Source: a virus (taxonomy: Duplodnaviria > Caudoviricetes). Taken from it: 64,000 bases of DNA. Made by a program: the position numbers and the translations under genes. The notes below the pieces were generated by a model. The model searched no databases. It saw nothing but the letters and a program-made list of their open reading frames with translations, and was not told the origin of the DNA. Location: IMG/VR virus record IMGVR_UViG_2883475777_000001; one strand, written 5' to 3'. Every line of letters begins with the position of its first letter. The stretch's first letter is position 1. Shown here piece after piece: positions 14,472 through 59,025 of this stretch.

Positions 14472-16505
14472 TTACGCTTCGCCCTTGGCTTTCACGCCAC
14501 CGCGCGAGTCTTGAAGTGCCACCCCGAAGTCGTGGTAACCTCGCATCTGGACACCGAGCTTGTTGAAGTCCGCCTCGGCCGTTTCGATCGTCGGGGCCTC
14601 TTGGCCGTTGAGGAATGCGACCTCGATGACGGGCAGGTCGGTCGACTCGGCCAGCAGATACCAGGCCTTCGACGAATTGCCCGTGTATTGGGCGTTGGAC
14701 AGGTAGCGACTGACCTCGACGCGGAACTTGCCCTGGTGCGGATTGGACACCGGGTACTTCGTGGTGGTCGTCGTGTCCCGCAGTTCCATCGACTTGAAGA
14801 GCTGCGAGCCGATGGCTGATAGCGACGTCGGCACGAGCAAGATCGCCGGCATGATGCCGATCGGCTTGCCGTCGCCATCGACCTGATCCATGAAGGTCAC
14901 TTCGCCTTCGGTCAATCCGTCGATCGACAGCGCCGTGCTGGCACCGGTGATGTAGTTGTTGTTGCCCGCCGTGAAGAAGGCGCTGTTGGCCAGGAACGTT
15001 GACCAGAAGACGTCATTGATCTTCAGACCGCTGCCCCGACCAAGCTTGCGCGGCACGGTGGTGATGGCATTCAGGTCGTCGTTGATGATGTCGCGGCGAT
15101 CGATCGAGAGCATCAGGCCGTAGGTGTCGGCCTTGTTCTCGTACTTCTCTTCGCCGAGCGTCCCGTGCTTGAGCTCGCCGCCGGGTGCGACCTGCTCGTA
15201 TTGATCCTTGCCGACCAATCGGTAGCTGGTCACGGTCTTGAAGTCGCTCACGTTGCGCACTGCCGTAACGTTCCGCCAGGTCCGCTCGACGCTGAAGAAG
15301 CCATCGAGCAGGAATTTGTTAGCGACGTTCGACAGGATGCCGCCGATGTCGACGGTCGAGAATCCGGCTTCGAGCGTCGGGTTGAAGGCGTAACGCAACA
15401 CAGCCCGGCTGTCGCGGAAGTTGCGGCCGGTGTAGCCGTTGGCCCATGCCGCTTCGAGCAGCAGTTCCTGCAGCCCGATGCCGCCGCGGAATCGCTCCGT
15501 CGCGGCGTCGAGCGTTTGACCGTCGAACATGGCGTCGATCTGGTCCACGTGCCCTGTCAGCAGGCACGCCGCCTCGAGCACGCGGGCATTGATCGTCTTG
15601 TCGTGCATGTGAATCGCCGGCGTGCGGGGCCGGTTGGCGCGAAGCACTTCCAATTCACAGCGCGTCACGTCCCAGCCTTCACCGATCGCCTTGGCCTCGA
15701 TCTCAGGAAAACGGCCCGCGCACAGTTGGCGGATCGCCGAGATGCGACTGACTTCGGCAGCAGCCTGCGAGCGGATTTCATCGACGGCGGAGCCGGCGGT
15801 CACAGCAGGGGCCTGCGTTTGTTGGTTCGCTTGGTGCGAATCCCGCTCGTTCGCGTCGGTATCTGTGGCGGCAGTGGTGTTTTCGGGGTCCATGTCGGAA
15901 TTCTCCTCTTGCTTGTCGGTATGGTTGGCAGCGGCTGCGACCGTCGCGCTGGTCTGCCCATCCGCGCCGAGATCGACGAAACTGATCTCACTGAGCGTGG
16001 ACTTGCGCACGACGTTGAGCGGGCCGGCGTGCTCCTGGCCGTTGACGATTACCGTTTGGCGTTCCTTGACGAACTCGAACTCATCGACGCTCGCTCCCAC
16101 GGATGCCTGCCAGGGGAATCCGTTCTTCGAAGAGGCGACGACTTCGCGGGCGGCTGCTGTGTCGCGGGACACAATGCCCGTTGCCACCAGCTGCCCGCCG
16201 TCGATGCGGATGTTGTCCGTGTGCCCGACGCCGGACGTCGGGTCATGACTGAAGCGGATCGGCCGCGACTGCGAGGGAATCCCCAGTCCCGCGAGGTCGA
16301 TGATGACCGGAAAACGCCAGCCCGCGATCCGCATCGGTGCGCCGGTGTAGGCGACCATTCGGAATCGGGGCAGCGCGGGCGCGGAGCCTTCATCGCCGGC
16401 TGACGCGACGTCGATCATCGCCGTCGCGGTGAGTTGCAGCGTGCTGGGCACGTTCTGCTTTTCAGGCTGCGCGGGCGGGCGCGTCTTCGTTTGCTTCTTC
16501 GCCAT
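14472..16505 (-). CDS. Prohead protease-major capsid fusion (helper prophage)
   Basis: N-terminal FRMVAYTG...FSHD...FPWQASVGA protease-like domain; C-terminal capsid domain (GGELKHG, SIDRRDIINDDL, HDFGVA). Confidence 0.88.
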   Translation of the reverse strand: MAKKQTKTRPPAQPEKQNVPSTLQLTATAMIDVASAGDEGSAPALPRFRMVAYTGAPMRIAGWRFPVIIDLAGLGIPSQSRPIRFSHDPTSGVGHTDNIRIDGGQLVATGIVSRDTAAAREVVASSKNGFPWQASVGASVDEFEFVKERQTVIVNGQEHAGPLNVVRKSTLSEISFVDLGADGQTSATVAAAANHTDKQEENSDMDPENTTAATDTDANERDSHQANQQTQAPAVTAGSAVDEIRSQAAAEVSRISAIRQLCAGRFPEIEAKAIGEGWDVTRCELEVLRANRPRTPAIHMHDKTINARVLEAACLLTGHVDQIDAMFDGQTLDAATERFRGGIGLQELLLEAAWANGYTGRNFRDSRAVLRYAFNPTLEAGFSTVDIGGILSNVANKFLLDGFFSVERTWRNVTAVRNVSDFKTVTSYRLVGKDQYEQVAPGGELKHGTLGEEKYENKADTYGLMLSIDRRDIINDDLNAITTVPRKLGRGSGLKINDVFWSTFLANSAFFTAGNNNYITGASTALSIDGLTEGEVTFMDQVDGDGKPIGIMPAILLVPTSLSAIGSQLFKSMELRDTTTTTKYPVSNPHQGKFRVEVSRYLSNAQYTGNSSKAWYLLAESTDLPVIEVAFLNGQEAPTIETAEADFNKLGVQMRGYHDFGVALQDSRGGVKAKGEA

Positions 16506-16941
16506 CTTCGTCCTCCTCGATGTCGTCGTTGGTCGGTGGAACTGCCGCAGGTGTCAGCCCGAGTTCCTGCATCAGCGAGAATTCCTTGGCCCGCTGGCGC
16601 AAGGCTTCTTCCCAATCGCGCCCCTGCCGGGCGTATTCGTGAGCAAGGGTGGTGGTGAGATTGGCCAAACGGGTCGCTTGGGCGCTGGCTTCTTTGGCGG
16701 GGTCCACATGCTCGTGGCCATCCCAAAACCATTGATGGGGCCATTGAGCGATCGGCCCAGCGTCCGCGGGCAAGAGTCCCGGAATGAGCACCGCTTCGTC
16801 GAACCAAGCGGCCAGCACTCGATCGAGCACAACCGATTCCAGTTGGGCCTGCTCGACGCGGATCGATTTGAAGTACGTCTGATGATCCAGACGGCCCGAG
16901 GCGTAGTTGTATCCCGAGCTGTTTCCCGCCGCGACGTTGAA
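16462..16941 (-). CDS. Portal protein, 3' part (split by integrated element)
   Basis: FNVAAGNSSGYNYASGRLD is the lambda-type portal C-terminal motif; in frame with the 5' part at 27389-28372. Confidence 0.9.
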   Translation of the reverse strand, partial: FNVAAGNSSGYNYASGRLDHQTYFKSIRVEQAQLESVVLDRVLAAWFDEAVLIPGLLPADAGPIAQWPHQWFWDGHEHVDPAKEASAQATRLANLTTTLAHEYARQGRDWEEALRQRAKEFSLMQELGLTPAAVPPTNDDIEEDEDGEEANEDAPARAA

Positions 16942-16961
16942 CGGAGCGCAAGAGGCGGGAT
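16931..16961. other. Left att junction (core TTGAA plus inner arm CAAGAGGCGGGAT at 16949-16961)
   Basis: Arm is the exact reverse complement of 27361-27373. Confidence 0.85.
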
Positions 16962-16985
16962 AAGAGCGAACAATGCAGAACGCGT

Positions 16986-18824
16986 CTATTCGGCGGCGAT
17001 CCAACCCTTTTGATGGCCGAGGTTGTTAATCTTGCCGCTTAAGACGGCCTGCGCAAGGAGGCGAGAAGCGTACGGCCGTCGCACGCCGAGATGGTCGGCT
17101 ACGTTGCCAAGGAACACCACGTCGTCCTGTTCGCGGACGAAGCGCGCGGCGTCCCGCCAGCGACCGGGACTGGGAACGTCATCATCGGTAATTGGAATCG
17201 TGCCATCGATGCCCAGGTCGTCGCGAAGTTCGATCGCGCCGTCCCACAGCGTGATCCGGTGCTTGCCGTCGCCACGACGCTCGCGACGAAGAATGATCCG
17301 CTTCACGGTCTGGCGAATGGCGAACGCGAGCTTCTCACGGTCCGCTTCCGACAGGCACTCCAGCAGTTCGTCCAACCGTGCGATGACCTCCAGCGCTTCC
17401 GGCGTCGGTGCTTGCTCGCCCTGCACCTGGTGCAGCTTCTCTTTGAGCTCCGATTCCTGTTTGCGCCACGTCGCCAGCAGCTTCGAGATACCGGGAACGT
17501 CCAACGGATCGGCCAGGGCCAGGTTCTCCGTGCCCCGTTCGATCTTGGCCCACAAGTCGGCAAGCTGCGATTCGTACCGACCGACATCGGTCTGAACCTT
17601 TCTCGTGCGACGCGTGATCTCCTTGCGGATCGCTCGCTTTGTGCGTTCGTCCGACATGAACGCCTGTAACTTGGACAAGACGCCCTGCTCGATGGTCTCC
17701 GCGCGGAAGCTTGGCCGATCCGATTCCTCCGGGTGTTCCTCGAATTCGCGGGGAGGCAGCGAATAGTACCGTCGCACGACCGCGCGTTGCGAATGGCTCA
17801 TGGTGCAGCCTTGCAGTCTGCGGCCGTCGCCGAGAAAGACAACTCCAGTGAGCAGGTACTTGCCTGGCGTTGGAGCCTTGCACGGCTCGCTGTTTCGCTG
17901 GAGCTGCTTCTGCGCGCGGTCGAATAACGCGGGTGTTACGAGCGGCTCGTGGGCGTCTTCGCATGTCACGCCACCATCATCGTAGAGACTGCGAAACTTG
18001 CCGCGCCGCCGCTTCTGGCCGGCAACGATCCTTCCCACGTAGACCGGATTCGTCACCGTGCGTCGAACACTCGTGGCGTTCCACCGGTTGCCATGCATCG
18101 TTCGGTAGCCTTGCCGATTGAGCTGGCGGGCCACGGACCCGCACGACGAGCCTTTTGCAACGGCCTCGAACATCATTCGCACCGCTTCGACAGCTCGCAC
18201 GTCGGTTGAGATGACCAGTCTCGACGACCATTCAATCGGACGCCGGAACTTCTCCGTTGGCGATACGCGGCGGACGACGACACCCGTTTCGTCGAGAATC
18301 TCCCGGTCGTAGCCGAACGGTGGCCCGCCCTGCTTCTGGCCACGACTGATTGCCAGTCGCTTGCCACTAATAACCCGGTCGGCCAGTTTCACCGATTCCT
18401 CGCGTGCGCCGTACTGATCGACGATGGCGGTGATCACGCCGCCCAGGTTGTTGAAGTCGAGTTCGCCGCGCTGGCAGGTGATGATCTTCACGCCGGCGTC
18501 CCGTAGCTGCTTCCAATGGATCATCGCGTCGAACACGTCCTCGCGCGACATCCGGCTTTGTTCAGAAAGCAGAACAGCGCGAAACGCGCCGCCTTTTGCG
18601 TCACCGAGCAACCGCTGGAAGTCCTTGCGGTTGTTCGATTCCGTGCCGGTCAGTCCGTGGTCTTCATACCAGCGGACGATTTTGTAGCCGGCGCGATCGG
18701 CCAAGGCCTCAATGTCCTTTCGTTGCCGCGCGGGGCTATCCTGCTGTTGGTCGGTGCTCATGCGGATGTAGCCAACCGCCGGAACGCGCGACCCGTTTCT
18801 CCGTGTAGAATTGCGTTTAGCCAT
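16986..18824 (-). CDS. Large serine recombinase (satellite integrase)
   Basis: GYIRMSTDQQQDS catalytic motif, SEQSRMSR, recombinase domain, coiled coil; start MAKRN at 18824. Confidence 0.92.
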   Translation of the reverse strand: MAKRNSTRRNGSRVPAVGYIRMSTDQQQDSPARQRKDIEALADRAGYKIVRWYEDHGLTGTESNNRKDFQRLLGDAKGGAFRAVLLSEQSRMSREDVFDAMIHWKQLRDAGVKIITCQRGELDFNNLGGVITAIVDQYGAREESVKLADRVISGKRLAISRGQKQGGPPFGYDREILDETGVVVRRVSPTEKFRRPIEWSSRLVISTDVRAVEAVRMMFEAVAKGSSCGSVARQLNRQGYRTMHGNRWNATSVRRTVTNPVYVGRIVAGQKRRRGKFRSLYDDGGVTCEDAHEPLVTPALFDRAQKQLQRNSEPCKAPTPGKYLLTGVVFLGDGRRLQGCTMSHSQRAVVRRYYSLPPREFEEHPEESDRPSFRAETIEQGVLSKLQAFMSDERTKRAIRKEITRRTRKVQTDVGRYESQLADLWAKIERGTENLALADPLDVPGISKLLATWRKQESELKEKLHQVQGEQAPTPEALEVIARLDELLECLSEADREKLAFAIRQTVKRIILRRERRGDGKHRITLWDGAIELRDDLGIDGTIPITDDDVPSPGRWRDAARFVREQDDVVFLGNVADHLGVRRPYASRLLAQAVLSGKINNLGHQKGWIAAE

Positions 18825-18837
18825 GATTGCCCTTTCC

Positions 18838-18905
18838 AAACCAAAGGGTGTGAATGGTAAGAGCCGCCGGCGTGTTCGCTGCACGCCGACGGCTCGCTTT
18901 GGTTT
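18838..18905 (-). promoter_or_regulatory. Nested hairpin in the integrase leader
   Basis: 14-bp stem with 1 mismatch (18861-18895) inside AAACCAAAG/CTTTGGTTT arms, adjacent to the RBS. Confidence 0.5.
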
Positions 18906-18929
18906 CAGACGTTGGGTGGTTTCGACTGA

Positions 18930-19133
18930 TCATCGGCCTTCCAAGATTCCGACGACCGCCGCCAACCTCTGGTTGACTTCAGCCATCGTTCCAACATGCG
19001 TCCATGCGATGTCGACCTCGCCGCCGGGTGCCGGTTGGTCCTGCAACAATTCGCGGATGCGTTGCAACAGGTCCTGCGCAACCAGGTGGGACGTCTCGTA
19101 GGCCGGTTCGGCTTGCAATCGTTGTCGTGTCAT
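18930..19133 (-). CDS. Small hypothetical protein, paralog of 35517-35744
   Basis: AYE..H.VAQDL.QRI.ELL.D.PAPG...W..VG...EVN.RL shared; ATGA coupling. Confidence 0.75.
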   Translation of the reverse strand: MTRQRLQAEPAYETSHLVAQDLLQRIRELLQDQPAPGGEVDIAWTHVGTMAEVNQRLAAVVGILEGR

Positions 19134-19405
19134 TTGGACGCCCTCCGTTTCTTCGCCGCCAAGGTGAAACGACCGGGGCCGGTCTTCTTGAAACGGGCGT
19201 CCTTTCCCTTGCCGATGTCTCGAATGATCGAAGCGTACAAGGTGGCCTGCGGCGTCTTGCCGCCGGGCGAGGTCCACAGGTTTTTCCTTTCCATCGCCTC
19301 GATCATCTCTTTGCAGCTCATGGGCTTTCGGGCTTGCCGCAGCACCTTGATGGCTGCATCGATCTGGCTCAGCTTCGGTTGGGTTGCGGTCTTCTTTCCT
19401 GCCAT
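19130..19405 (-). CDS. Winged-helix (HARE-HTH-like) protein, paralog of 36120-36521
   Basis: DAAIKVL...PMSCKEMIEAM...LWTSPGGKTPQATLYASIIRDI. Confidence 0.8.
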   Translation of the reverse strand: MAGKKTATQPKLSQIDAAIKVLRQARKPMSCKEMIEAMERKNLWTSPGGKTPQATLYASIIRDIGKGKDARFKKTGPGRFTLAAKKRRASK

Positions 19406-19496
19406 CGTTTCGTCTCCCAATCGGATTGGTGTTGTTGCGTCGCGAACGCCGCGACGCGTGACAGGACAGTTACCTCGCGTTTTCGGCGTCATCAAG

Positions 19497-19811
19497 CTAG
19501 GCGTTGGCATCCTTGGCCAAGTCCGCCGAATCGTCGCCAGACGGGCCAACTGTGGGCGACGGGTTGGCCATTTGGGCGTCCAGCCAAGGGTATTCGCCAG
19601 CCCGAATCGACGCTTCGATCTGTTTCAGAAATTGCCATTCCCACAGCGGGACCATTACGACGTCCTGCTTGCTGTAGCGCTGGATCACAATCGGCTCGTC
19701 GGTGTTGGCCACGGATTGATACGCCCATCCCAGGCTGTCTCGCAGGTGGGTGATCCGCATGACGTGCTCGGGCGTTGGTTCGGGCGTTGGTTCGGGCATT
19801 GGCTCGGACAT
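19497..19811 (-). CDS. Phd/YefM antitoxin-like protein
   Basis: MRITHLRDSL...V..TDEPIVIQRYSKQDVVMVPLWEW; start uncertain. Confidence 0.55.
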   Translation of the reverse strand: MSEPMPEPTPEPTPEHVMRITHLRDSLGWAYQSVANTDEPIVIQRYSKQDVVMVPLWEWQFLKQIEASIRAGEYPWLDAQMANPSPTVGPSGDDSADLAKDANA

Positions 19812-19839
19812 GTACAAGAAAGAAACTGTAGGTAAGTTT

Positions 19840-19888
19840 GCGACTGTTCCCGCGGGCGTCTCCTGAAGACGGTCGCGAGGTAGGACCC
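19840..19888 (-). other. Putative packaging (cos-like) signal, satellite copy
   Basis: 34/49 gapless identity to 39234-39282; starts with GGGTCCT. Confidence 0.6.
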
Positions 19889-19913
19889 GTTCGCCCAACG
19901 GAGGCGATTCAAG

Positions 19914-20147
19914 GTTGCCACCAAGACTGCCAACATGCCCCCGTCTCTTTTTGGTGGCAATCTTGGCAGTGTTGGCAGCCTTCCCCAAAAACACCGGGAA
20001 CCACGCGTTCCCTCTACGGCAATTTGGTGGCCATCTTCCTTTTTGGTGGCAGTGTTGGCAGTCTTGATTCGGTGAAAGATGTCCAAGGCTGCCAAGACTG
20101 CCAACTTATTGAGACGGGGGTTGGTGGCAGTCTTGGTGGCCATCTTG
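19914..20147. repeat. Iteron-like cluster (TTGGTGGCA/TTGGCAG units, both orientations); putative satellite origin
   Basis: About a dozen short units immediately downstream of the helicase gene. Confidence 0.65.
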
Positions 20148-21716
20148 ATCCGGCAGGCTCCAATACCACTTGCCACCATCCTTCTTGGACCGACCTTCGA
20201 TCTCCTTGAACGCACGCCGGAGCGTTCGCTCCGAGAAGCCGTTCTCTCTCGCATCCGCAATCACCTGTTTCGATGGCTGGCGACCTTCAGCGAGCTCGTT
20301 GCGCAACCAGGCGACGACCTCACGTCGCTCCGCGCCTTGAGTGCTCTTGTCGCTGGTCGATTTCAATTCCGCCGCGAAGGCCTCGTCGGCGTGCATGCGA
20401 ACCGGTTCGAGTTCCCATGCCACGCGGCTGTCGACGATGCGGTACGCCAGGCCGTCGGGATCGCGTGCGAGGTTTAGCTTGCCGGGCAGGAACAATCGTC
20501 GCTCGGGATTCTCCTGGTCCTTGGCCACCGCCCACACGGCGCGTGAAGCGGCCGCGAATGCCAGCGAGCCCATCGCACGGTACACCGCTTTCGCGCCACC
20601 CGACTTGCTGAGATGGGTCACAGCGACAATCGCCACCCGATGGCGGCCAGCCAAATCGGCAAGCGGCGCGAGTAGACCTCGGACATCCGTGTTCTTGTGG
20701 GAATCAACGCTGCCGGTGTAGGCCGAAATCGGATCGATCACGACCAGGCGCGCGTCGGGCATCTCTTGCATGACTTCCTCAAGGCGTGGGAGGTCGGCCT
20801 CAAGCGAGAAGTGCCGGCGTCTGCCACCTTCGGCCACGCCTTCGACGGCCACTATGTTCCCGTCGTCCGCGCCGGCCTTGTCCAATCGCGGCGCGATGGT
20901 GTCGGCCAGATCGTCCTCGGCGTTGAAGAGCACGACGCCCGCCGGCGACTGCTTGAGCAAGGGCAGGTCGGGCCACGGCTCGCCGCGCGAAACGCGAGCG
21001 GCGATGTCCAGCGTGACGAATGACTTTCCCAGACCTGGATCGCCGGCCAACAGAGTCAGCTTGCCCAGCGGAATCCGCCCAGGCCACAACCAGTCAAGTA
21101 GTTCACGTTCCACGTCTTTCAACCTCCTCTTGATCGCGTGAGGCGGTGCCGGTGGTCGCCAGAGCGGCGCTGGTGCCGGTGTTGGCTTTGCCGGCTTCGG
21201 TGCCTCAAGCATGCCGCGCAGTCCCTCCGTCAGAAAATCCTCGGGCCGTGGCGGTGGTACGATCCGCTTCGGATTGATCTCCGCTTTCGCCCACGCATCG
21301 ACCGCCTTCTGCCACGGCGGCACAATCTCGTCCGCGACTTGGCCGTTGGTCGCACCCGCTTCGCACAGTTCCCACCAGAGTTGCTTGGCCATCTCCATTG
21401 CCTGGCAACGTCCGCGCGTGCGACATGCGGCAACCTCGTGGCCCGTGTGGTAGACCACCTGGTCGCTCTCCATGTCGGGATCGCCGTACATCTCGGCGCT
21501 CGGCACGAGCAGTTCGGCTTCCCGTCTTGCCTGCCGCCGGTCGTTCCAGGCCAGGGCGATGGCTGCCTCGTCGGGCGCATCCCAGGTGGCGACCACCATA
21601 GCGCCCTCCATGAAGGCTTGGCGATAGACGCGTTCGTTGGTTTGGCGCTCGGGCGTGACAGGCCAATGCGGACCGTCGTCGTAGAAGCGAACCGTCTCAG
21701 GCGGCAGCGTCACCAT
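20106..21716 (-). CDS. AAA_25/RepA-like helicase
   Basis: WLWPGRIPLGKLTLLAGDPGLGKS, FNAEDD, LVVIDP, THLSK, GSLAF. Confidence 0.88.
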   Translation of the reverse strand: MVTLPPETVRFYDDGPHWPVTPERQTNERVYRQAFMEGAMVVATWDAPDEAAIALAWNDRRQARREAELLVPSAEMYGDPDMESDQVVYHTGHEVAACRTRGRCQAMEMAKQLWWELCEAGATNGQVADEIVPPWQKAVDAWAKAEINPKRIVPPPRPEDFLTEGLRGMLEAPKPAKPTPAPAPLWRPPAPPHAIKRRLKDVERELLDWLWPGRIPLGKLTLLAGDPGLGKSFVTLDIAARVSRGEPWPDLPLLKQSPAGVVLFNAEDDLADTIAPRLDKAGADDGNIVAVEGVAEGGRRRHFSLEADLPRLEEVMQEMPDARLVVIDPISAYTGSVDSHKNTDVRGLLAPLADLAGRHRVAIVAVTHLSKSGGAKAVYRAMGSLAFAAASRAVWAVAKDQENPERRLFLPGKLNLARDPDGLAYRIVDSRVAWELEPVRMHADEAFAAELKSTSDKSTQGAERREVVAWLRNELAEGRQPSKQVIADARENGFSERTLRRAFKEIEGRSKKDGGKWYWSLPDQDGHQDCHQPPSQ

Positions 21717-21864
21717 CGTTGGCCTCCGCTTGTTTCCGTCGCTTCTCGTAGATGTCGATCAATACGGCGGCCCAGGCGTCGGCGACTTCCTCAGGAAGCT
21801 TCTCCTTCGTATCCGGATCCTGCCGGCGCGCATCCTCAGCGCACGGTGTTGACTTGGTTCTCAT
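21697..21864 (-). CDS. Small hypothetical protein (55 aa)
   Basis: GAGAGGG RBS; EEVADAWAAVLIDIYEKRR helix; overlaps the helicase start. Confidence 0.5.
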   Translation of the reverse strand: MRTKSTPCAEDARRQDPDTKEKLPEEVADAWAAVLIDIYEKRRKQAEANDGDAAA

Positions 21865-21989
21865 GACCCTCTCCTCGAAACCGCGAATTCTGCTGTCGCA
21901 GAGACAAATCGGCGTCGCGGCCTGCAAGTCCTGGTGCAAGCCACGATTCGCCACGCGGGTGCGGGCCAGTCCATTGAGTGCGGCGCGGA

Positions 21990-23831
21990 CTATTCGCCGT
22001 CGGCCTTGTACGCGGCGCGATAATCGCCCAGCGCGGAACCGAAGTCGTGATAGACTCGCCACGTCGCGGCGAGCTTGTTGGGATCGGCGTCGAAGCCGAA
22101 AAACTCAACCGTCGGGCTCTGCTTGCCCTGCAGGAATGCCACGACGATTGCCGCGTCCTGCCGGCCGGCGAACAGATACCATGCCTTATCGCTGGTGCCG
22201 GTGAAGCGAGCTGAGTTCGACAGCCGCGGTTCGACCTCGAGCGACACGACGTTCTTGAGGGCATTGCCCGTCGGCTCGTCGTTGTTCGCCCGCTGGATAA
22301 AGTCGGACTGCAGCAGCTCCTTGGCGGTCTGCTGCAACTCGGGCGGCACAAGTAACGTGCGAGGTCGGATGTCGAGGTCGCGATCCTCGTCGTCCCGCTG
22401 CGCCATCATGCGAGCGATGCCGGTCGCCAGCGCGATCGCGTCGAGCGTCGATCCGGCACCGGTGTCAAAGTTGCCGTTGCCGGCGCTGAAGAACGAGCCG
22501 GCCCCACCGAGCAGCGTCGTGTAGGCCAGATCGCTGACCGCGCGCATGGCCGCTCGACCGAGCGACATCGCCGTGTCCTCGAACAGACCGAGGTCGTCGT
22601 TGATGATGTCGCGCCGGTCAATCGACAGCATCTTGCCAAAGGTATCGACCGAATACTGGTAGGTCGCCTCGTCGATGCTGCCGTGCTTCAGTTCGCCGCC
22701 CGGCGCAACCTGCGTCAGGTCACCGGTATCACTCGGTCGGATGCCGGTGTGATCCTTGAAGTCGGCAGCCGACTTGATCGCCGCGAACGCACGCCAGGTG
22801 GCCGGCGACTCGGTGTAAGCATCGAGAAGCACCTTGTTCGCCGCATTCCCAAGCGCGACGGGAAGAGAGTAAGTCGACAGCGCCGCGCGGATCAGGGCCT
22901 CGCGTCCCGATGGCGCGTCGCGCTGTTCGACCATCAGTGCCGCCCGGCATAGATCAACGAGGCTCGTGGCCCGCAGCTCGCGGGCTTGTTGGGCGGTTTG
23001 CGGGCCAAGGTGCTTCTCGACCAGATTCTCGTGGCCCATGTGGACCAGCACGGCCGCTTCGATCACGTCGCGCGTGGGCGCGACCGTCGTCGTTTGGATG
23101 TACGGACCGCGCGGGCGCGACGCTCGCAGCACGGCCAGTTCCGTCTGCTGTCCGGACCAGCCTTCTCGGATGGCCTGCGCCTCGATGTCGCCGTGTTCGC
23201 CATTGCAGGCACGACGAATCGCCGTGATCCGTTCGGTTTCGGCAGCCGCTTCGGCACGGATGTCCTCGGCGGTTTTTTCTGTGGTTGTCATGAGAGCCTC
23301 TTCTCCTTCCTGCGAAGCGGCGATCGCGACCGACGTTCCGGCATCGGCACCAATCGCCACAATGCTGACTTCCTTGAGCGCGGACGACCGCACCAGCGTG
23401 AACCCGCTACCGGTCGCCCTGATCGTCCGCCCGTTTACTTCAACAATGTCGCCGGCGCGTACTCGCTTCGATTCGCCCGGAGCAACACCGACCGACGCCT
23501 GAAACTGAAACCCGCTGCGAGCCAGCTCGATGATCTGCTTCGCGGCCTCATTGGTGGGCGCGATCGTGCCGGCGACTAGCAACTTGCCGTTGGCGACCGA
23601 CGCCTGCCCGAAACCCACAACACCTCGCAGCGTAGAGTCGTGGTCGGCCAGGATGCTGATCTGAGACGCCGAGACGTCGACGCCGGCCAGGTCGAGAACT
23701 AGCGGTCCCCATCCAGGCACGACCATCTCACCGCCTGTGTAGGCGACGATGGTGACGGCCGGCGTTTTGCCGGCGGCCTGAATATCCACGTCGCTTGTCG
23801 CGAGCAGCAGTTCTTCAGTCGCTGTGGACAT
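21990..23831 (-). CDS. Second protease-major capsid fusion (satellite-encoded)
   Basis: IVAYTGG, FQFQASVG, QVAPGGELKHG, LSIDRRDIINDDL, YHDFG: divergent homolog of 14472-16505. Confidence 0.88.
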   Translation of the reverse strand: MSTATEELLLATSDVDIQAAGKTPAVTIVAYTGGEMVVPGWGPLVLDLAGVDVSASQISILADHDSTLRGVVGFGQASVANGKLLVAGTIAPTNEAAKQIIELARSGFQFQASVGVAPGESKRVRAGDIVEVNGRTIRATGSGFTLVRSSALKEVSIVAIGADAGTSVAIAASQEGEEALMTTTEKTAEDIRAEAAAETERITAIRRACNGEHGDIEAQAIREGWSGQQTELAVLRASRPRGPYIQTTTVAPTRDVIEAAVLVHMGHENLVEKHLGPQTAQQARELRATSLVDLCRAALMVEQRDAPSGREALIRAALSTYSLPVALGNAANKVLLDAYTESPATWRAFAAIKSAADFKDHTGIRPSDTGDLTQVAPGGELKHGSIDEATYQYSVDTFGKMLSIDRRDIINDDLGLFEDTAMSLGRAAMRAVSDLAYTTLLGGAGSFFSAGNGNFDTGAGSTLDAIALATGIARMMAQRDDEDRDLDIRPRTLLVPPELQQTAKELLQSDFIQRANNDEPTGNALKNVVSLEVEPRLSNSARFTGTSDKAWYLFAGRQDAAIVVAFLQGKQSPTVEFFGFDADPNKLAATWRVYHDFGSALGDYRAAYKADGE

Positions 23832-24411
23832 TGGTCGCCTCCTGCGGTTCGAGTTTGGTTCCCTGCGGGAAGAACCGGATGTAGGCGTACTCGTTCGGAT
23901 CGGTGGACGGTTCGATCACGGTGACCAAGCCGAGCACGTCGAAGCTCGTCGAGAACCCCATCTTGTAACGAGCGGCTGCAACGCGACGCGCCTTCACGCA
24001 CTGGCCGAACCGCAGGTTGTTGACCCAGCAGTAGTGCGTCCAGGACGACCATCGGTCCTGGTCGTTCTCATAGATCCACTCGGCGGCCGCGTCGATGTCC
24101 TCCTTGCTCCACTCGAGCCAATCGTTGCCCGTCCAGGTCATGCCTGGCCGCGCTCCCTTCGGCTGGACGATTCCTTTCTCGGCGAGCTGCCAGAGGTAGA
24201 TGCCGTCGACGTACAACCCTCGGAGACGCAGTTCGCGGAATGCGCCTTCCGTCGACTTGGGATAGATCAGCGCCGTGCTGGAGTTGCGACTGCGCATCTT
24301 CTCGTCGTCGATGTTGGGTAGCAATTCCATCAACTGATCGAAGTCCTCGCGGAGCCAATAGTGCTTCTTGTCGGCCCGGGCTTCGCGGTCCTGCTGTTCA
24401 GTTTGCCTCAT
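23815..24411 (-). CDS. Hypothetical protein (198 aa)
   Basis: Coupled to the sigma gene (ATGA) and overlapping the capsid start; AGAAGGA upstream. Confidence 0.7.
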   Translation of the reverse strand: MRQTEQQDREARADKKHYWLREDFDQLMELLPNIDDEKMRSRNSSTALIYPKSTEGAFRELRLRGLYVDGIYLWQLAEKGIVQPKGARPGMTWTGNDWLEWSKEDIDAAAEWIYENDQDRWSSWTHYCWVNNLRFGQCVKARRVAAARYKMGFSTSFDVLGLVTVIEPSTDPNEYAYIRFFPQGTKLEPQEATNVHSD

Positions 24412-24917
24412 CCTTGTTCTCCTTCTTTGATGATTGAGAGTTCGCGTTGGACGGTTCGCTTGGGAATTCCCGTCTCCCTGGCGATTTCGTCGACCGTGCA
24501 GCCGGCCATCCACAGCGTGCAGACTTCCCGCCTTCGTTCCGGCAGGCTGCCGAGATAGTCGCGAATCAACCCGTCGACGGCCGGGTCGCGACAACGCGAA
24601 GTGCGCGGCGTCGCATAACCCTCGATGTTTCCCGGCTGGTTGTCAGAGTCGATTCGTGAGACAGCCTTCGGCTCGCGTTTGCCTTCCGAGTAGAAGTCAC
24701 GGAGGAGGTTGTACTGCCGGCTCGCCATGCGGTTCTTGGCAAGACCGACGTCCTTCGTCTCACACAAGACCTGCCAGCCGGCCAGAAACAGCTCCTGAAT
24801 CGCATCCTCCGTGCGATGGTCGTCCCAGCCATGCGGTCGCTTGGCCGCGATGAGTTTCTTGACCAACGCCTCCGCAAACGGGTGGAGATCATCGGGGGTG
24901 TCGAAGTAATCGGTCAT
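24408..24917 (-). CDS. ECF-like sigma factor (satellite)
   Basis: EDAIQELFLAGW (region 2-like) and LPERRREVCTLWMAGCTVDEIARETGIPKRTVQREL (region 4.2 HTH). Confidence 0.75.
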   Translation of the reverse strand: MTDYFDTPDDLHPFAEALVKKLIAAKRPHGWDDHRTEDAIQELFLAGWQVLCETKDVGLAKNRMASRQYNLLRDFYSEGKREPKAVSRIDSDNQPGNIEGYATPRTSRCRDPAVDGLIRDYLGSLPERRREVCTLWMAGCTVDEIARETGIPKRTVQRELSIIKEGEQG

Positions 24918-25251
24918 CCAATCTCCTTTGACCGGCAGGCTTCCTGCGTCTACTCAACTAATCCACGCGCCTCCGCGCAAACGCGCCATCGTAGACTCGA
25001 AATCTTCTTGAGACCTCGGCCTCCATCGGATCGTCAGTTGTTTGCGTATTAGCTGCGCGGAAATATCACTGATTTTTCTCATGTCCGACGATTGAACTCG
25101 CGTTGCAGAATGATAAACTGGGCAATTTAGTGGAGGCGAGAGCAGTTCGCTGCCGATTCGTGGAGTCGCTGAAACTTTTTGGACTCCGAAGTCGTCTCTC
25201 CTTGATAGAGAGGTTTCCATTTTCCCTAGCCGGCCAACCACGAGGTGTCAA

Positions 25252-27237
25252 ATGCAAAGACGATTCACGGTTGTTATCACAACCTTACTGTTGACTCTCT
25301 CTTCTACTGTTTCTTATGCCCGCACCTGGACCGAGCGGTCATCCGGACGAACAGTCAATGCAGATCTCGTCTCCTTTGCTGGCGACGTCGTAAAGATCAG
25401 ACGCCAGAGCGATGGCAGAGTCTTCGCTGTCCCCGTCGAACGGTTGAGCGACGTTGACCGAACCTTTGTGGAATCTGCTTCTCAAACGCGCCCTGAGGCA
25501 ACGCCCCGAAAAGGCAACGTTAGGTTTGTGGCGTTTAATGCGCAGGCCCAGGATGAGTACAGTGCTGAGCAACTCAATGCGTCGAAACGCATCGTCTGTG
25601 TCTGGAAAAAAGGCACGGCTCAAGCAGCCATGAGGACGATTGAAGCGGTCGGTCTGAAGGTCACGTACCTTGGCTCTGCAATCCCGTTCGGCGTTTGCAC
25701 CGGACAACTCACCGAGGACGGACTCAAGCGGCTGAGGAGCGACCCGTCGATCCAAAGTGTCGAACCTGACATCGAGTTGGTCGTTGACGACGCGCAGCCC
25801 GAAGTGCGGCAGATTACGGACGAAGTCTTGGCAGCATACGAACACGCTGGCCGTATGGTGTGCGTCTGGAAGAAGGGGAAGAAGAAGGAAAGTCTCGAGA
25901 TGCTTGCGCAAATGGAGAAAGAAGGAAAGCTGCGCGTGATTCACAAACTCGAGACCACTCCAATCGCCTTCTGTGACTGGAAGCCGCCACTGCAGCAAGC
26001 AACGCTGGTGCAACTGCAAAAATCGCCAATGCTGGATTACGTTGAACCAGATTTGACGCTGGTGAAGGACAACCCAACCAAAGGTCGAGAGATTGTATTC
26101 CCGAACGGGACACCCAAGACGGTCGTGTCTAAAGGCGTTGTACTGACCACGCCAGATGATCCAGAGATTGCCAAGCTCTGGGGAATGGATTCCATCAAGG
26201 CGAAGAAGGCGTGGACCTGTGCCAACCAAACAGATGTTGTTGTGGCAGTGATCGATTCGGGCGTCGATTATAATCATCCGGACCTGAAGGCCAACGTGTG
26301 GGTCAATACGGGTGAGATCCCTAACAACGGAGTTGATGACGACAGTAACGGCCACAAGGATGACTACTACGGCCTGAACTTCACTCAACTTCCACCTACA
26401 ACGGATACGCTCGATAGATACGGACACGGTAGCCACGTCGCCGGAACTATCGGTGCCGTTGGCAACAACAAGCTCGGAGTCGCAGGCGTCAATTGGCGTG
26501 TGCAGGTCATGGGACTCAAAGTTTTTGATGACGCTGGAACTGCACCAGTTGGAAGCGCTCTAGCTTCTGCCATCGATTATGCTGTCGCGAGGAAAGTTCG
26601 CGTCATCAACTTGAGTCTTCGCTGGGGAAGTGAGCGGGCTTTCTTGAAACGTGTTATTGATGGAGCGGAAGACAAGGGCGTTCTGATTGTATGCTCAGCT
26701 GGCAATCTAAATCGTGGTGATGATCCACGCACGATTGATAATGACGTCGTGCCCCAGTTCCCCGCGTCCTTTCCGAATGACAACGTCATCGCGGTTGCGA
26801 ACATCACGGAGAGAGAACAGCTTAATGCGAGTAGTCATTTTGGATTGCGGAGCGTCGATTTGGGTGCTCCCGGGACAGACATTTACAGCACTGTGCCAAC
26901 TTCTGTAAAGGCATCGGGTTATGACTCGTACACTGGGACATCCATGGCAAGTCCGCATGTCGCAGGTGCGGCGGCGCTGATTTGGGGACATAAGAGGTAT
27001 AGCAGTGGCGATTTCAAGGCGATTCGAAAGCTACTTCTAGACAATGCTCGCTCAATTCCCGCGTTGTCGGGAAAGTGCGTAACTGGCGGCACTCTTGACA
27101 TTGGCTTCTTGTGTAAGCAGAGCCCGCCACCTATCGGAAAGAAACCGCCAATCGTGATTTGCCCCCCACCTCGTTGTTACATCCCGTGTCCCCCGCGCCG
27201 CCACGTCTTTTATCGCTTCCGTTGTGGTAGTCGGTAG
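25252..27237 (+). CDS. Secreted S8 subtilisin-like protease with SHD1-like N-terminal domain
   Basis: Signal peptide; RTWTERSSGRTVNA (SHD1-like); two I9-like propeptide repeats; triad VIDSG, HGSHVAG, GTSMASPHVAG. Confidence 0.92.
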   Translation: MQRRFTVVITTLLLTLSSTVSYARTWTERSSGRTVNADLVSFAGDVVKIRRQSDGRVFAVPVERLSDVDRTFVESASQTRPEATPRKGNVRFVAFNAQAQDEYSAEQLNASKRIVCVWKKGTAQAAMRTIEAVGLKVTYLGSAIPFGVCTGQLTEDGLKRLRSDPSIQSVEPDIELVVDDAQPEVRQITDEVLAAYEHAGRMVCVWKKGKKKESLEMLAQMEKEGKLRVIHKLETTPIAFCDWKPPLQQATLVQLQKSPMLDYVEPDLTLVKDNPTKGREIVFPNGTPKTVVSKGVVLTTPDDPEIAKLWGMDSIKAKKAWTCANQTDVVVAVIDSGVDYNHPDLKANVWVNTGEIPNNGVDDDSNGHKDDYYGLNFTQLPPTTDTLDRYGHGSHVAGTIGAVGNNKLGVAGVNWRVQVMGLKVFDDAGTAPVGSALASAIDYAVARKVRVINLSLRWGSERAFLKRVIDGAEDKGVLIVCSAGNLNRGDDPRTIDNDVVPQFPASFPNDNVIAVANITEREQLNASSHFGLRSVDLGAPGTDIYSTVPTSVKASGYDSYTGTSMASPHVAGAAALIWGHKRYSSGDFKAIRKLLLDNARSIPALSGKCVTGGTLDIGFLCKQSPPPIGKKPPIVICPPPRCYIPCPPRRHVFYRFRCGSR

Positions 27238-27272
27238 CGGCTTGCAGAGTGACGACTAGTAGTGCTAGTTAC

Positions 27273-27308
27273 GCCCAGCAGGAGCATTCCTGCTGGGCAT
27301 TTCTTTTT
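27273..27308 (+). terminator. Rho-independent terminator after the subtilase
   Basis: GCCCAGCAGGA-GCAT-TCCTGCTGGGC (11-bp stem) followed by ATTTCTTTTT. Confidence 0.8.
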
Positions 27309-27360
27309 GACTCAATGACGTTGATACAGAAATGCCGAATCGAACAGGTTGTTGACGAAA

Positions 27361-27394
27361 ATCCCGCCTCTTGAACGCCCTTCTTGAAAGGCAT
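27361..27394. other. Right att junction (inner arm ATCCCGCCTCTTG at 27361-27373, core TTGAA at 27384-27388)
   Basis: Inverted copy of the left arm; portal homology resumes at 27389. Confidence 0.85.
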
Positions 27395-28372
27395 GTTCAG
27401 GCAGCGGGCAATCTCGTTGAGAATCTCGTGCTTAAACTCGCCATAGGTCGTCGCGGGCTGTTCGGCTTCGAGCTGGCTCATCTTCCAACCGCCAGGCATG
27501 GTGAGCAGCGCCCGCTGTTCCAGTTCGATGGGCTCGAATGGTTCGGCGGCGTCCGCCTCGCCGTTGGCTGGCGCGTCGGTGTAGAGGATGCCGGCGAAGT
27601 CGGCAGCCGTTTCAGCGGCCGCAAGCACGGCCAGCGTGAATCGCCGCAACTGTGCAAACAGCGGCAGCGCCGGCATGATGTCGGGAATGCCGCGTGCCTG
27701 GCCGGGTCGGTCGAGGCGGAACAAGTGAATCATCGCTTCGGCGGGCAGGCGGTCGTAGTCTCGCGTCAGCCGAACGGCTTCGCCTGGATGCGACTTGAGC
27801 ACGTGGTATTCGATCGGATTGCCGGCGTCGTCAAACACGATGCCGTCGATGCCATTGGTGATCAAAGCATTCAAGTCGGGCGTGCAAACCTGGTCGGCTT
27901 CAATCAACCGCAGGTCGAGTTGGATCGCCGTCGGCAGCACGGGATTGCTTGTCAACACGGCGAACGCTTCACCGTCCTGGGCGCGCGACATTCGCATCGT
28001 GCGAAGTTTCTCGGGCAGGTTGACGGCTCTGGACCACGCGCCAAACTCTCGTTCGATCCGGCGATTGGCGTCGGCGTCATCCGTCAGTACCTGCAGCCGA
28101 GGTCCGGTGCCGATCGCGTCGTTGGCCAGCGTCAACACAATGCCACGGGCGTAGCTGTTGTTGGCTACCTCATAGCGTGCTCGATTACGCAGAATGCGAC
28201 GTACCTCGGCGCTATTGGCCGCGTTGGCGGACAGTCCATCCGCGCCGGCCCAATGCCGACGGTTATCGTCGTTGGTGACGGCCGCATCGTAGCGGGCGCG
28301 AAGCACTCGCGCGGCCCGCGTCAACGGGCGGCTAGTCGTCTTGGTGAACAGATTGGCGAGCCAACGGAACAT
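27389..28372 (-). CDS. Portal protein, 5' part (lambda family); restored gene would be 487 aa
   Basis: RYDAA, LRNRARYEVANNSYARG, DGEAF, RPGQARGIP, EIARCLNMPF; ORF-track tail to 27269 is read-through into the element. Confidence 0.92.
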
Positions 28373-29560: not shown

Positions 29561-29561
29561 T

Positions 29562-32580: not shown

Positions 32581-32772
32581 TCAGACGCGATTTGGAGGAG
32601 CCTGGACCGGCGACTCGTAAGTCACGATCTTGCGGCTGCAATGCCGGCACTCTTTGCGGCGGCGAATACGGCCGTCACGCAGCGGTTCCGTATGCGTGGT
32701 GTAGAAATGCCGGCAGCCGCACCGTGGGCATTCGATGCCGCGATTGGGTTGTTGTGAGCCGGCCTGATTCAT
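32581..32772 (-). CDS. Small Zn-ribbon protein (CxxC...CxxC)
   Basis: ECPRCGC...RRRKECRHC; ATGA overlap with the terL stop. Confidence 0.75.
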   Translation of the reverse strand: MNQAGSQQPNRGIECPRCGCRHFYTTHTEPLRDGRIRRRKECRHCSRKIVTYESPVQAPPNRV

Positions 32773-37251: not shown

Positions 37252-37617
37252 TCAACCGCCCACCTCCTTCGCGACGTGGGCCAACGTGGGCGACCAGTCG
37301 GGACCGAGATACCGAACGGGCTTGCCCAACTCGATGGCGATTCGGATTTCCGCTTGCACCCCCGCACTCGCCTCCCAACCATCGAGCGTCAGCACGACCA
37401 CTTCGTTGCAACATTCAAGATGGTGCCGGTCGAACGGTTCCCAGAATCGCCAGTCAGTCGGCAGCCCATGCGTGCAGATGCAGTGGCCGTGAGCGATCGG
37501 CGAAAAAACGGCGTGGCCAAGCCGCATTAGCTTCGCCGCCGCGCGGCACGCGTCACGAAAACGCAATTCGCGCACCGCAACATCGGGATGCGAATACGGG
37601 CTGGCCAGGTAGATCAT
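37252..37617 (-). CDS. DUF1937-like (nucleoside deoxyribosyltransferase-fold) protein
   Basis: MIYLASPYSHP...FSPIAHGH...SAGVQAEIRIA. Confidence 0.75.
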   Translation of the reverse strand: MIYLASPYSHPDVAVRELRFRDACRAAAKLMRLGHAVFSPIAHGHCICTHGLPTDWRFWEPFDRHHLECCNEVVVLTLDGWEASAGVQAEIRIAIELGKPVRYLGPDWSPTLAHVAKEVGG

Positions 37618-58602: not shown

Positions 58603-59025
58603 TCATGTCGCAATACCTTTTAGCGAAGCGAGTTGCGCCCACAGGCGTCGCTGCTTTCGCCAGTCCGGCACCAGCGCAATTGACTGCAATTGGCGGAGGT
58701 GAATCGGGTCGCGGCCGCTCTCCACACGGGGCAGGAAGAGGAGCGCCTCCTGGATGTCAGGGGCCAGCATCCGCAGGTTCATGATCTGCGTGATTCGGGC
58801 GCGAGTGACGTGGGCGAGACGAGCTAGTTCGGCGTAGTCGGTGACTTCGCCGGCGCGGATCAGATCGTCGAAACGGATCGCCAGCGCCATGAAACGGGCC
58901 ACACGCGGAACACGACCGGAATGGAGAGGCGGCGTGGGAGCGTCGCCTTCGCGGACTTCCTTGCGGCTACCACGCCCGCGTCGCTCGAAATGGATCTGTG
59001 ATTCGATCGTGATGGGCCTGGTCAT
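58603..59025 (-). CDS. HTH protein of serine-recombinase module
   Basis: DYAELARLAHVTRARITQIMNL...LAPDIQEALL; ATGA coupling. Confidence 0.75.
   Translation of the reverse strand: MTRPITIESQIHFERRGRGSRKEVREGDAPTPPLHSGRVPRVARFMALAIRFDDLIRAGEVTDYAELARLAHVTRARITQIMNLRMLAPDIQEALLFLPRVESGRDPIHLRQLQSIALVPDWRKQRRLWAQLASLKGIAT

What the first reader, a model, noticed from the sequence alone, without database searches (positions are those of the whole stretch)
16462..28372. Helper portal gene split in frame by an excisable element: a satellite gating its helper's virion assembly
Seen: the 5' portal ends at ...CTG AAC ATG CCT and the 3' part begins TTC AAC GTC GCG GCG GGA AAC. Removing 16942-27388 gives an uninterrupted 487-aa lambda-type portal (LNMPFNVAAGNSSGYNYASGRLD). 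A serine recombinase gene ends ~45 bp from the junction. Known: serine-recombinase elements such as B. subtilis skin and SPbeta interrupt genes and restore them on excision. Inference: the prophage cannot make heads until the satellite excises, so helper particles form only when free satellite DNA exists. This is both a parasitic checkpoint and a brake on lysis. I know of no described satellite integrating in the helper portal.
Basis: partly seen in the sequence, partly recalled or inferred. Interest (0 to 1): 0.95.

Follow-up and report, generated by a model that had tools for sequence, protein, structure and literature searches.

The report
Satellite element splitting its helper's portal gene
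A 10.4-kb mobile element carrying a serine recombinase, a replicase and its own capsid gene sits precisely inside the portal gene of a prophage in a Planctomycetota genome. It is a new serine-recombinase version, in a distant phylum, of the "helper-embedded satellites" already described in enterobacteria.

Summary
A lambda-type portal gene on the minus strand is cut at codon 328/329 by a 10,447-bp insert (16942-27388). Joining the halves gives a stop-free 487-aa portal that matches intact homologues across the junction.

The insert has symmetric attP-like ends, a 5-bp core (TTCAA) and an intact large serine recombinase ending 44 bp from the junction. It also carries an AAA_25 replicase with iteron-like repeats, a protease-capsid fusion and small DNA-binding proteins. 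It has no portal, terminase or tail genes.

The arrangement recurs. Ten other contigs carry related recombinases at the same portal codon, and three use a second site about 20 codons upstream. Cousins with a 66-76% identical capsid sit inside the terminase Walker B codons or a ParB-methylase gene of the same phage family. A further cousin is an ordinary chromosomal island with a tyrosine integrase.

Its novelty claim fails: Tommasini et al. 2023 (PMC10111431) described helper-embedded PICIs in portal, terminase and capsid genes, with induction data.

This is a convergent variant of that kind. This scan flagged the same stretch before, but not on other DNA.

The parts
27389..28372 (-). Helper portal gene, 5' part (codons 1-328)
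   Evidence: PF05136 Phage_portal_2, E 2.7e-52. It is 68-83% identical to intact portals in related genomes.
27350..27410 (.). attL: portal half-site, core TTGAA (27384-27388), element half-site with CAAGAGGCGGGAT read on the minus strand
   Evidence: Inverted repeat I10. The same layout is seen in L069 and L070.
25252..27237 (+). Cargo gene: S8 subtilase with an N-terminal SHD1 domain. Low GC (0.52-0.54), opposite strand, followed by the only strong terminator (27273-27298, + strand)
   Evidence: Pfam. GC profile. Terminator scan. This position holds different cargo in related elements.
24408..24917 (-). Small sigma-factor-like protein (region 4 HTH)
   Evidence: PF08281 at 9e-08 and phrog_1740. 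It is 47-48% identical in the terminase-embedded cousins.
23815..24411 (-). Conserved satellite protein of about 198 aa, function unknown; weak MerR/HTH_17-like lead only
   Evidence: 57-65% identical in L081, L087 and L090. No Pfam or PHROG hit. The Atlas lead is below its reliability threshold.
21990..23831 (-). Satellite's own prohead protease-major capsid fusion (613 aa)
   Evidence: PF25209 at 1.8e-42 and phrog_4523 at 7e-73. It is 36% identical to the helper capsid and 66-76% identical to the capsids of other embedded elements.
20106..21716 (-). AAA_25 replicative helicase/primase-like protein
   Evidence: PF13481 at 4.5e-38, plus primase/helicase PHROGs. Homologues lie in L069 (58%), L081 (57%) and L082 (44%).
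19909..20148 (.). Iteron-like direct and inverted repeats; candidate replication origin
   Evidence: the repeat finder pairs I1, I2, I15 and D7. The function is inferred from position next to the replicase.
19497..19994 (-). Phd/YefM-like small protein (true start probably internal)
   Evidence: PF02604 at 8e-4, a weak hit. It is 48-66% identical in cousin elements.
19130..19549 (-). HARE-HTH DNA-binding protein, shared with the helper
   Evidence: PF05066 at 3.9e-15. It has 76% nucleotide identity over 202 nt to the helper gene at 36072-36521. The overlapping + strand ORF 18996-19835 is judged spurious.
18930..19277 (-). Small ORF whose C-terminal part resembles the helper's 75-aa protein (35517-35744 +)
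   Evidence: 70% nucleotide identity over 90 nt.
16986..18884 (-). Large serine recombinase; the nucleophile motif IRMSTDQQ is present
   Evidence: PF00239 at 3.3e-24, PF07508 at 9e-23 and phrog_95 at 5.9e-80. Full length relative to 66-80% identical homologues.
16915..16975 (.). attR: element half-site ATCCCGCCTCTTG, core TTGAA (16937-16941), portal half-site
16462..16941 (-). Helper portal gene, 3' part (codons 329-487 plus stop)
14472..16505 (-). Helper protease-capsid fusion (677 aa)
   Evidence: PF25209 at 3.4e-42.
32769..35039 (-). Helper large terminase (gpA type). It is intact here and is the target of cousin satellites at codon 292
   Evidence: PF20454 at 6.6e-26..
37614..39011 (-). 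Helper ParB-N6/N4 methyltransferase. It is intact here and is a third target of cousin satellites
59022..61102 (-). Probable integration module of the helper prophage: DUF2924 protein plus a second serine recombinase (529 aa)
   Evidence: Its role as the helper integrase is inferred.

Best explanation
The 10,447-bp insert is a phage satellite embedded in its helper prophage.

**Shown**
- A large serine recombinase placed the element by attP x attB recombination into a highly conserved stretch of the helper's lambda-type portal gene, at codon 328/329.
- The element is co-oriented with the portal.
- It can plausibly replicate (AAA_25 protein plus iteron-like repeats) and make its own shell (protease-capsid fusion).
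- It has no portal, terminase or tail genes.
- Its recombinase lineage repeatedly targets this codon.
- Its capsid-carrying lineage repeatedly sits inside packaging or DNA-handling genes of the same phage family.

**Inferred**
- After induction the recombinase, with a directionality factor from the satellite or the helper, excises the element.
- Excision rebuilds attB and therefore an intact portal gene.
- Until then neither helper nor satellite DNA can be packaged, so helper virion production is tied to release of satellite DNA.
- The satellite is then packaged using helper portal, terminase and tails, probably in capsids made of its own protein.
For: **The insertion is precise and restorable**
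- Searches show a stop-free join that matches intact portals across the junction.
- The reconstructed attP is symmetric, with 13-bp perfect outer repeats and the core near its centre.
- The recombinase is full length and keeps its catalytic serine motif.

**Recurrence at this site**
- The same codon and core are used in L041, L069, L070, L091-L096 and L099. Four composites, counting the window, have both junctions on one contig.
- A sister recombinase clade uses a site about 20 codons upstream (L071, L097, L098).
- All 9 of 9 IMG/VR hits to the recombinase sit in a portal gene.

**Cousins in other helper genes**
- Capsid-carrying cousins lie in the terL Walker B codons (L081, L085, L087, L088, L090).
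- Others lie in the ParB-methylase gene (L084, L086, L089).
- A non-embedded cousin carries a tyrosine integrase in a chromosomal context.

**The split portals do not look decayed**
- Split and intact portals interleave in a tree.
- Their dN/dS values are alike, 0.09-0.16.
- No other usable portal exists in the 6.5-Mb genome.

**Transcription and precedent**
- No strong minus-strand terminator lies at the attL side, so helper late transcription could read into the element.
- In the enterobacterial analogue, induction gave excision of the helper-satellite composite, then its replication, then satellite excision (PMC10111431).
Against: - There is no direct evidence of excision.
- Scans for a free attP found nothing real.
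- No near-identical helper with an empty site was found.
- No cos or pac signal shared with the helper was found.
- No directionality factor is identified.
- Relatives at the same site carry restriction-modification systems and no capsid gene. The recombinase lineage as a whole may therefore be a broader class of integrative elements.
- Some family members lie next to ordinary chromosomal genes.
Confidence: 0.66

Rival explanations
1. The insert is an integrative cargo or defence island, not a satellite. It uses a conserved phage sequence as a landing site. Its main effect is to lock or disarm the prophage, to the benefit of the host or the island, and it is not packaged by that phage.
For: - Elements with the same recombinase at the same codon carry type I or other restriction-modification systems and no capsid gene (L069, L070, L071).
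- No packaging signal shared with the helper was found.
- Members of the family also occur beside chromosomal genes.
Against: - The window's element has its own protease-capsid gene. That gene lineage was seen only in roughly 10-kb elements that lack portal, terminase and tail genes.
- Known satellites commonly carry defence cargo, so restriction-modification genes do not argue against a satellite.
- In the recombinase tree the non-portal copies nest inside the portal clade, as off-target events would.
- Three different helper genes are hit by the capsid-carrying lineage.
Confidence: 0.2
2. The composite is a dead relic. The element inserted once and can no longer excise, so the prophage is permanently defective and the restorable reading frame has no consequence.
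For: - No excision evidence of any kind was obtained.
- The HE-PICI paper notes that many helpers of embedded satellites look truncated.
- The helper also carries other insertions, a metal cassette and a type I restriction system.
Against: - Both portal halves, the recombinase, both att half-sites and all large helper genes examined are free of stops or frameshifts.
- All three full-length split portals, counting the window, are open.
- They show the same purifying-selection signal as intact ones and interleave with them in the tree.
Confidence: 0.12
3. The split is an assembly artefact or a chimeric join.
For: None found.
Against: - The genome is a single 6.5-Mb contig.
- The same architecture occurs on many independent contigs from other genomes and metagenomes, with conserved att arms.
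Confidence: 0.01

Closest known systems
Helper-embedded PICIs (HE-PICIs), Tommasini, Mageeney & Williams 2023, PMC10111431
   Same: - A roughly 10-11-kb satellite integrated inside, and co-oriented with, a morphogenesis gene of its lambda-like helper prophage.
- Targets include portal (Phage_portal_2) and large terminase.
- The satellite often carries its own capsid gene plus a primase/replicase and origin.
- The interrupted gene is not replaced by the attP, so it can be expressed only after excision.
- Off-target chromosomal copies and non-embedded cousins exist.
   Different: - HE-PICIs use one clade of tyrosine integrases with AlpA. They have the PICI int/Bro/replication/late layout and were found only in Enterobacterales.
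- Here the recombinases are large serine recombinases, from at least two very distant clades.
- The host is Planctomycetota.
- The capsid is a protease-capsid fusion.
- One target (ParB-methylase) is not a virion structural or packaging gene.
- Excision has not been observed.
Vibrio cholerae PLE satellites (McKitterick & Seed 2018, PMC6002521)
   Same: A phage satellite that integrates and excises with a large serine recombinase. According to the title, abstract and my own knowledge of that paper, excision is triggered by a helper-phage-encoded directionality factor. That gives a precedent for helper control of a satellite's serine recombinase.
   Different: PLE integrates in a chromosomal repeat, not in the helper. 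Its helper ICP1 is a lytic phage, and PLE has no capsid gene of its own.
Gene-interrupting serine-recombinase elements: B. subtilis skin (SpoIVCA, sigK) and SPbeta (SprA, spsM)
   Same: A large serine recombinase element splits a gene, and regulated excision rebuilds it (own knowledge; the HE-PICI paper calls this 'regulated gene integrity').
   Different: In those cases a host developmental gene is split and the regulation serves the cell. Here the split gene belongs to another mobile element.
Capsid-forming PICIs (cf-PICIs)
   Same: Satellites that encode their own capsid protein rather than only remodelling the helper's.
   Different: cf-PICIs encode a full head and packaging set and take only tails from the helper (own knowledge and the abstract listed). 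This element has only the protease-capsid gene and lacks portal and terminase.

Membership tests
Helper-embedded satellite (configuration as defined in PMC10111431) | Element integrated within a gene of a surrounding prophage that can serve as helper | tested here: met
   The portal is split at codon 328/329. Terminase, capsid, tape-measure and replication genes lie around it.
Helper-embedded satellite (configuration as defined in PMC10111431) | Key satellite genes co-oriented with the interrupted late gene | tested here: met
   The recombinase, replicase, capsid and sigma-like genes are all on the minus strand, like the portal. Only the S8 cargo gene is opposite.
Helper-embedded satellite (configuration as defined in PMC10111431) | Satellite excises after induction and restores the gene | not testable with these tools
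The attP scans were negative.
HE-PICI / gram-negative PICI family proper | Tyrosine integrase of the 11capE clade with neighbouring AlpA | tested here: not met
   The integrase has Resolvase + Recombinase domains, so it is a serine recombinase. No tyrosine integrase ORF was found in the insert.
HE-PICI / gram-negative PICI family proper | Four-zone layout: int-alpA, Bro, pri/rep, late | tested here: inconclusive
   Replication and late (capsid) zones are present. No Bro-N or AlpA domains were detected, and the gene order differs.
Large serine recombinase | N-terminal resolvase catalytic domain with the nucleophilic serine, followed by a recombinase domain and a long C-terminal region | tested here: met
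   PF00239 at residues 36-183, PF07508 at 232-331, the motif IRMSTDQQ, and a length of 632 aa.
Large serine recombinase | Short att sites with imperfect dyad symmetry around a small core | tested here: met
   The reconstructed attP has 13-bp perfect outer repeats around a 22-bp centre that contains the shared TTCAA. The pattern is conserved in L069 and L070.
Phage satellite (general) | Lacks a full virion gene set but has its own replication and integration functions | tested here: met
   Only a protease-capsid gene is present. No portal, terminase or tail domains were found in 10.4 kb.
Phage satellite (general) | Packaged and transferred by the helper's machinery | not testable with these tools
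   No shared cos or pac sequence was detected. Particle data would be needed.
cf-PICI | Encodes capsid plus portal, head-tail connectors and its own packaging proteins | tested here: not met
   No portal or terminase lies in the insert.

The most novel reading that the evidence does not exclude
Planctomycetota host an independently evolved system of helper-embedded satellites driven by large serine recombinases.

- One satellite lineage makes its own protease-capsid shell yet depends on the very portal or terminase gene that it interrupts.
- Excision is therefore an obligatory, shared checkpoint for packaging of both partners.
- Different recombinase clades have been recruited to hit different essential helper genes: two portal sites, the terminase Walker B codons and ParB-methylase.

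This would show that embedding in helper packaging genes is a convergent, general satellite strategy rather than a peculiarity of one enterobacterial integrase clade.
Probability: 0.5. Interest if true: 0.75.

Novelty: new variant of a known kind. Interest (0 to 1): 0.6.

Why it matters
- **Convergence.** If it holds, satellites embedded in their helper's packaging genes arose at least twice. The two cases use unrelated recombinase families and lie in phyla as far apart as Pseudomonadota and Planctomycetota. That argues the configuration is selected and not accidental.
- **First satellites in this phylum.** My searches found no paper describing phage satellites in Planctomycetota, so these would be the first candidates there.
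- **Useful recombinases.** The finding supplies natural serine recombinases with mapped attP/attB pairs. They target very conserved phage motifs, including the terminase Walker B codons.
- **A testable system.** It offers a way to ask how a satellite times its excision relative to helper replication and late transcription.

Tried and rejected
- **Read-level test for excision junctions.** I did not pursue it further, and read laying was not used.
- **Free attP forms.** A degenerate attP pattern (both element arms around TTCAA) gave 0 hits in viral contigs. It gave 4 hits in metagenome contigs, all in unrelated coding sequence with no recombinase nearby, so they are chance matches.
- **Filled versus empty helper pairs.** No near-identical pairs were found among the fetched loci.
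- **Shared packaging signal.** BLASTN and exact 13-mer comparison of insert against helper gave only coding homology: the HARE-HTH gene, the 75-aa gene and the capsid. But only five diagonals reach 34/49, and one other at that level looks like chance. The match is also not where a lambda-type cos would lie. I rejected it as evidence.
- **orf279 as a conserved partner of the recombinase.** ORF 18996-19835 (+) first looked conserved. The signal comes from real minus-strand genes under it (HARE-HTH and a small ORF). The helper ORF 35232-36971 (-) is likewise a spurious antisense frame over + strand genes.
- **G054 portal fragment.** It ends near the junction but breaks 9 bp upstream with unrelated sequence, so it is not the same site.
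- **G007 recombinase.** This same-genus copy (65% identity) is not in a portal.
- **Function of the 198-aa satellite protein.** There were no Pfam or PHROG hits. The Atlas search gave only sub-threshold MerR/HTH_17-like leads, and no structure was predicted.
Full report
**1. The observation**

The window holds a lambda-like prophage read mostly on the minus strand. Its recognisable genes are:
- tape measure, 9641-11641;
- protease-capsid fusion, 14472-16505;
- large terminase of the gpA type, 32769-35039;
- ParB-methyltransferase, Prim-Pol and a helicase;
- AAA_24 protein, a sigma factor, an M78 peptidase and a type I restriction system;
- a DUF2924 plus serine recombinase module at 59022-61102.

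The portal gene is in two pieces. Codons 1-328 lie at 27389-28372 (PF05136, E 2.7e-52). Codons 329-487 lie at 16462-16941. Removing 16942-27388 gives a 1,464-nt frame with no internal stop.

That joined protein aligns over its whole length with uninterrupted portal frames in related genomes at 68-83% identity. There is no gap at the junction, and the 29 residues around it are identical in two of them.

The only other PF05136 match in the 6.5-Mb single-contig genome shows no significant similarity to the joined portal by tblastn (best E 0.038). It cannot stand in for the split gene.

**2. Anatomy of the insert (10,447 bp)**

Reading on the minus strand from the portal 5' part, the insert holds:
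- attL;
- an S8 subtilase gene on the opposite strand, with low GC and its own terminator;
- a small sigma-like protein;
- a conserved protein of about 198 aa with no family match;
- a 613-aa prohead protease-major capsid fusion, 36% identical to the helper's;
- an AAA_25 replicative protein, followed by iteron-like repeats;
- a Phd/YefM-like protein, a HARE-HTH protein and a small ORF;
- a 632-aa large serine recombinase with the IRMSTDQQ nucleophile motif, ending 44 bp before the junction;
- attR.

The HARE-HTH gene and the small ORF have homologues in the helper, in a + strand module at 35517-36521. The HARE-HTH pair shares 76% nucleotide identity.

Both ends carry one copy of TTCAA (minus-strand reading). 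Inside the element this core is flanked by ATCCCGCCTCTTG in inverted orientation. The reconstructed attP is therefore a 48-bp imperfect palindrome with the core at its centre, as expected for a large serine recombinase.

No portal, terminase or tail gene lies in the insert.

**3. Recurrence**

*Genome collection.* Searching with the recombinase gave 20 Planctomycetota loci.
- In L041 and L043 the portal 3' part starts at the same codon about 50 bp after the recombinase stop. The element arm GTTGTTCGCTCTTTGTCCGCCTCT is conserved.
- Fetching whole contigs showed complete split portals in L069 (14.5-kb insert) and L070 (16.8-kb insert), with the same TTCAA core at both ends.
- L071 carries a 47% identical recombinase and is split about 20 codons upstream.

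*IMG/VR.* All nine recombinase hits are followed by a portal 3' part and then the helper-type capsid. Seven are at codon 328 and two at about codon 301-305. L096 is a complete 9.9-kb insert on one contig.

*Cargo.* It differs among these elements:
- type I restriction-modification in L069;
- a methylase plus helicase in L070;
- a type I-like system in L071;
- a D5-type primase in place of AAA_25 in L096.

*Recombinase tree.* The codon-328 group forms a supported clade (99/95). The copies that lie beside chromosomal genes (PheT, PFK, CysNC) or elsewhere nest inside it, as off-target integrations would.

**4. The capsid-carrying lineage hits other helper genes**

The satellite capsid has 66-76% identical homologues in G023 (L081) and seven IMG/VR contigs. 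Most of these elements also share the sigma-like protein, the 198-aa protein, AAA_25 and the small DNA-binding genes. Their serine recombinases are only 27-32% identical to the window's.

*Terminase site.* In L081, L085, L087, L088 and L090 the element sits inside the large terminase gene at codon 292. That is within the Walker B stretch LVVLD|DPQ, with core GAC and an inverted CCGTGTGGA/TCCACACGG pair. In these contigs the portal downstream is intact.

*ParB-methylase site.* In L084 (both junctions) and in L086 and L089 (left junction only) the same element arm and core lie in the ParB-methyltransferase gene at RKD|FMG.

*A non-embedded cousin.* G055 has a chromosomal island of about 9 kb with AAA_25, a 41% identical protease-capsid gene and a tyrosine integrase, set next to host genes.

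The replicase plus protease-capsid module therefore behaves as a satellite family that has exchanged integration modules.

**5. Are the split portals decaying?**

All three full-length split portals (window, L096, L070) are open. In a portal tree they interleave with intact ones. L096 (split) is sister to L085 (intact) from the same metagenome.

Nei-Gojobori dN/dS is 0.09-0.16 for split-split and split-intact pairs alike. dS is close to saturation, and pairwise values average over the whole divergence. This shows no sign of decay, but it does not prove present function.

**6. Mechanism**

*Shown:* precise, recombinase-type insertion into a highly conserved portal segment; co-orientation; an intact recombinase and att sites; recurrence at this and other helper genes.

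*Inferred:* on induction the element excises and the portal is rebuilt. Only then can helper and satellite DNA be packaged. The satellite needs that portal as much as the helper does, because it has none.

No strong minus-strand terminator lies behind attL, so helper late transcription could run into the satellite. A directionality factor is required for excision by a serine recombinase (established knowledge), and none is identified here. Candidates are the small conserved proteins next to the recombinase and the 198-aa protein, which has only a weak MerR/HTH_17-like lead. Helper homologues of two of these genes exist, which recalls the helper-triggered excision of PLE (PMC6002521).

The 'brake on lysis' has no support in the sequence.

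**7. What could not be shown**

- attP pattern scans gave nothing real.
- No filled/empty pair of near-identical helpers was found.
- No shared cos-like DNA was found.

**8. Comparison with what is known**

Tommasini, Mageeney and Williams (bioRxiv 2022; NAR Genomics and Bioinformatics 2023, PMC10111431) described helper-embedded PICIs.
- These are 491 satellites of Enterobacterales, integrated and co-oriented in 14 sites of nine lambda-like late genes.
- The targets include A (terminase), B (Phage_portal_2, three to four sites), C and E.
- The satellites often carry their own capsid gene, and off-target chromosomal copies exist.
- An induction experiment showed excision of the helper-satellite composite, its replication, then satellite excision.

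All HE-PICIs use one tyrosine-integrase clade with AlpA, and they were found only in Enterobacterales. A full-text search for 'helper-embedded', and for satellites with serine recombinases in Planctomycetes, found no description of the present type.

I file it as a new variant of a known kind. It has the same configuration and probably the same logic. It differs in four ways:
- an unrelated recombinase family, from at least two distant clades;
- an unrelated satellite family with a protease-capsid fusion;
- a distant phylum;
- one target, ParB-methylase, that is not a virion structural or packaging gene.

**9. Verdict**

The interest is moderate to high. It rests on the convergence, on the breadth of the phenomenon uncovered here (about 20 embedded elements at four sites), and on the mapped serine-recombinase att pairs.

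Noticed in passing
L087:14893-18054 (also L084:15361-17475): In terminase- and methylase-embedded cousins the serine recombinase frame has no stop before attR. It runs in frame into the 3' part of the interrupted helper gene, giving for example a 1,053-codon ORF. The recombinase C-terminus would therefore differ between the integrated and excised states. The window's recombinase has its own stop.
   Followed up: partly
L071:640-800 and 19640-19750; L097; L098: A sister recombinase clade (45-48% identity) splits the same portal gene about 20 codons upstream (QPATTY|GEFK). An imperfect duplication of about 18 nt of portal sequence lies at the two junctions.
   Followed up: partly
window 28730-32575: A block with an ankyrin-repeat protein and a CopZ-MerT-HMA fusion lies between the terminase gene and the small ORF upstream of the portal. 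Related phages have a shorter spacer there (about 2.2 kb in L087). It looks like a separate cargo insertion in the head region.
   Followed up: partly
window 35232-36971 (-) and 18996-19835 (+): Two long ORFs (579 and 279 aa) are probably spurious antisense frames over real small genes on the other strand. The real genes are a 75-aa protein, an 83-aa protein and a HARE-HTH protein in the helper, and a HARE-HTH protein and a small ORF in the satellite.
   Followed up: yes
window 35029-35235 (-): A short ORF overlapping the start of the large terminase ends in a sequence that, from memory, resembles Nu1-type small terminase winged-helix domains. It has no Pfam hit. If correct, the helper cos site would lie near 35236-35516.
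   Followed up: no
window 50163-56081: A type I restriction-modification system (HsdM and HsdR-like genes with a gene between them) lies between the prophage regulatory region and the DUF2924/serine recombinase module. It is apparently cargo of the helper prophage.
   Followed up: no
L082 and L083 (G055:C1 about 2.866 Mb and 4.190 Mb): Two copies of a 41% identical protease-capsid gene occur in one complete genome. The copy examined is a small chromosomal island with AAA_25 and a tyrosine integrase. The second copy was not examined.
   Followed up: partly
L096:43-1983: In this composite the portal 5' frame continues for about 350 further codons into the inserted element, against 39 codons in the window. 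No domain was found in the extension.
   Followed up: no
L086 and L089: Two methylase-embedded composites look rearranged. After a fragment of the satellite replicase gene they continue directly into helper capsid or tape-measure genes, which suggests deletions between satellite and helper.
   Followed up: no
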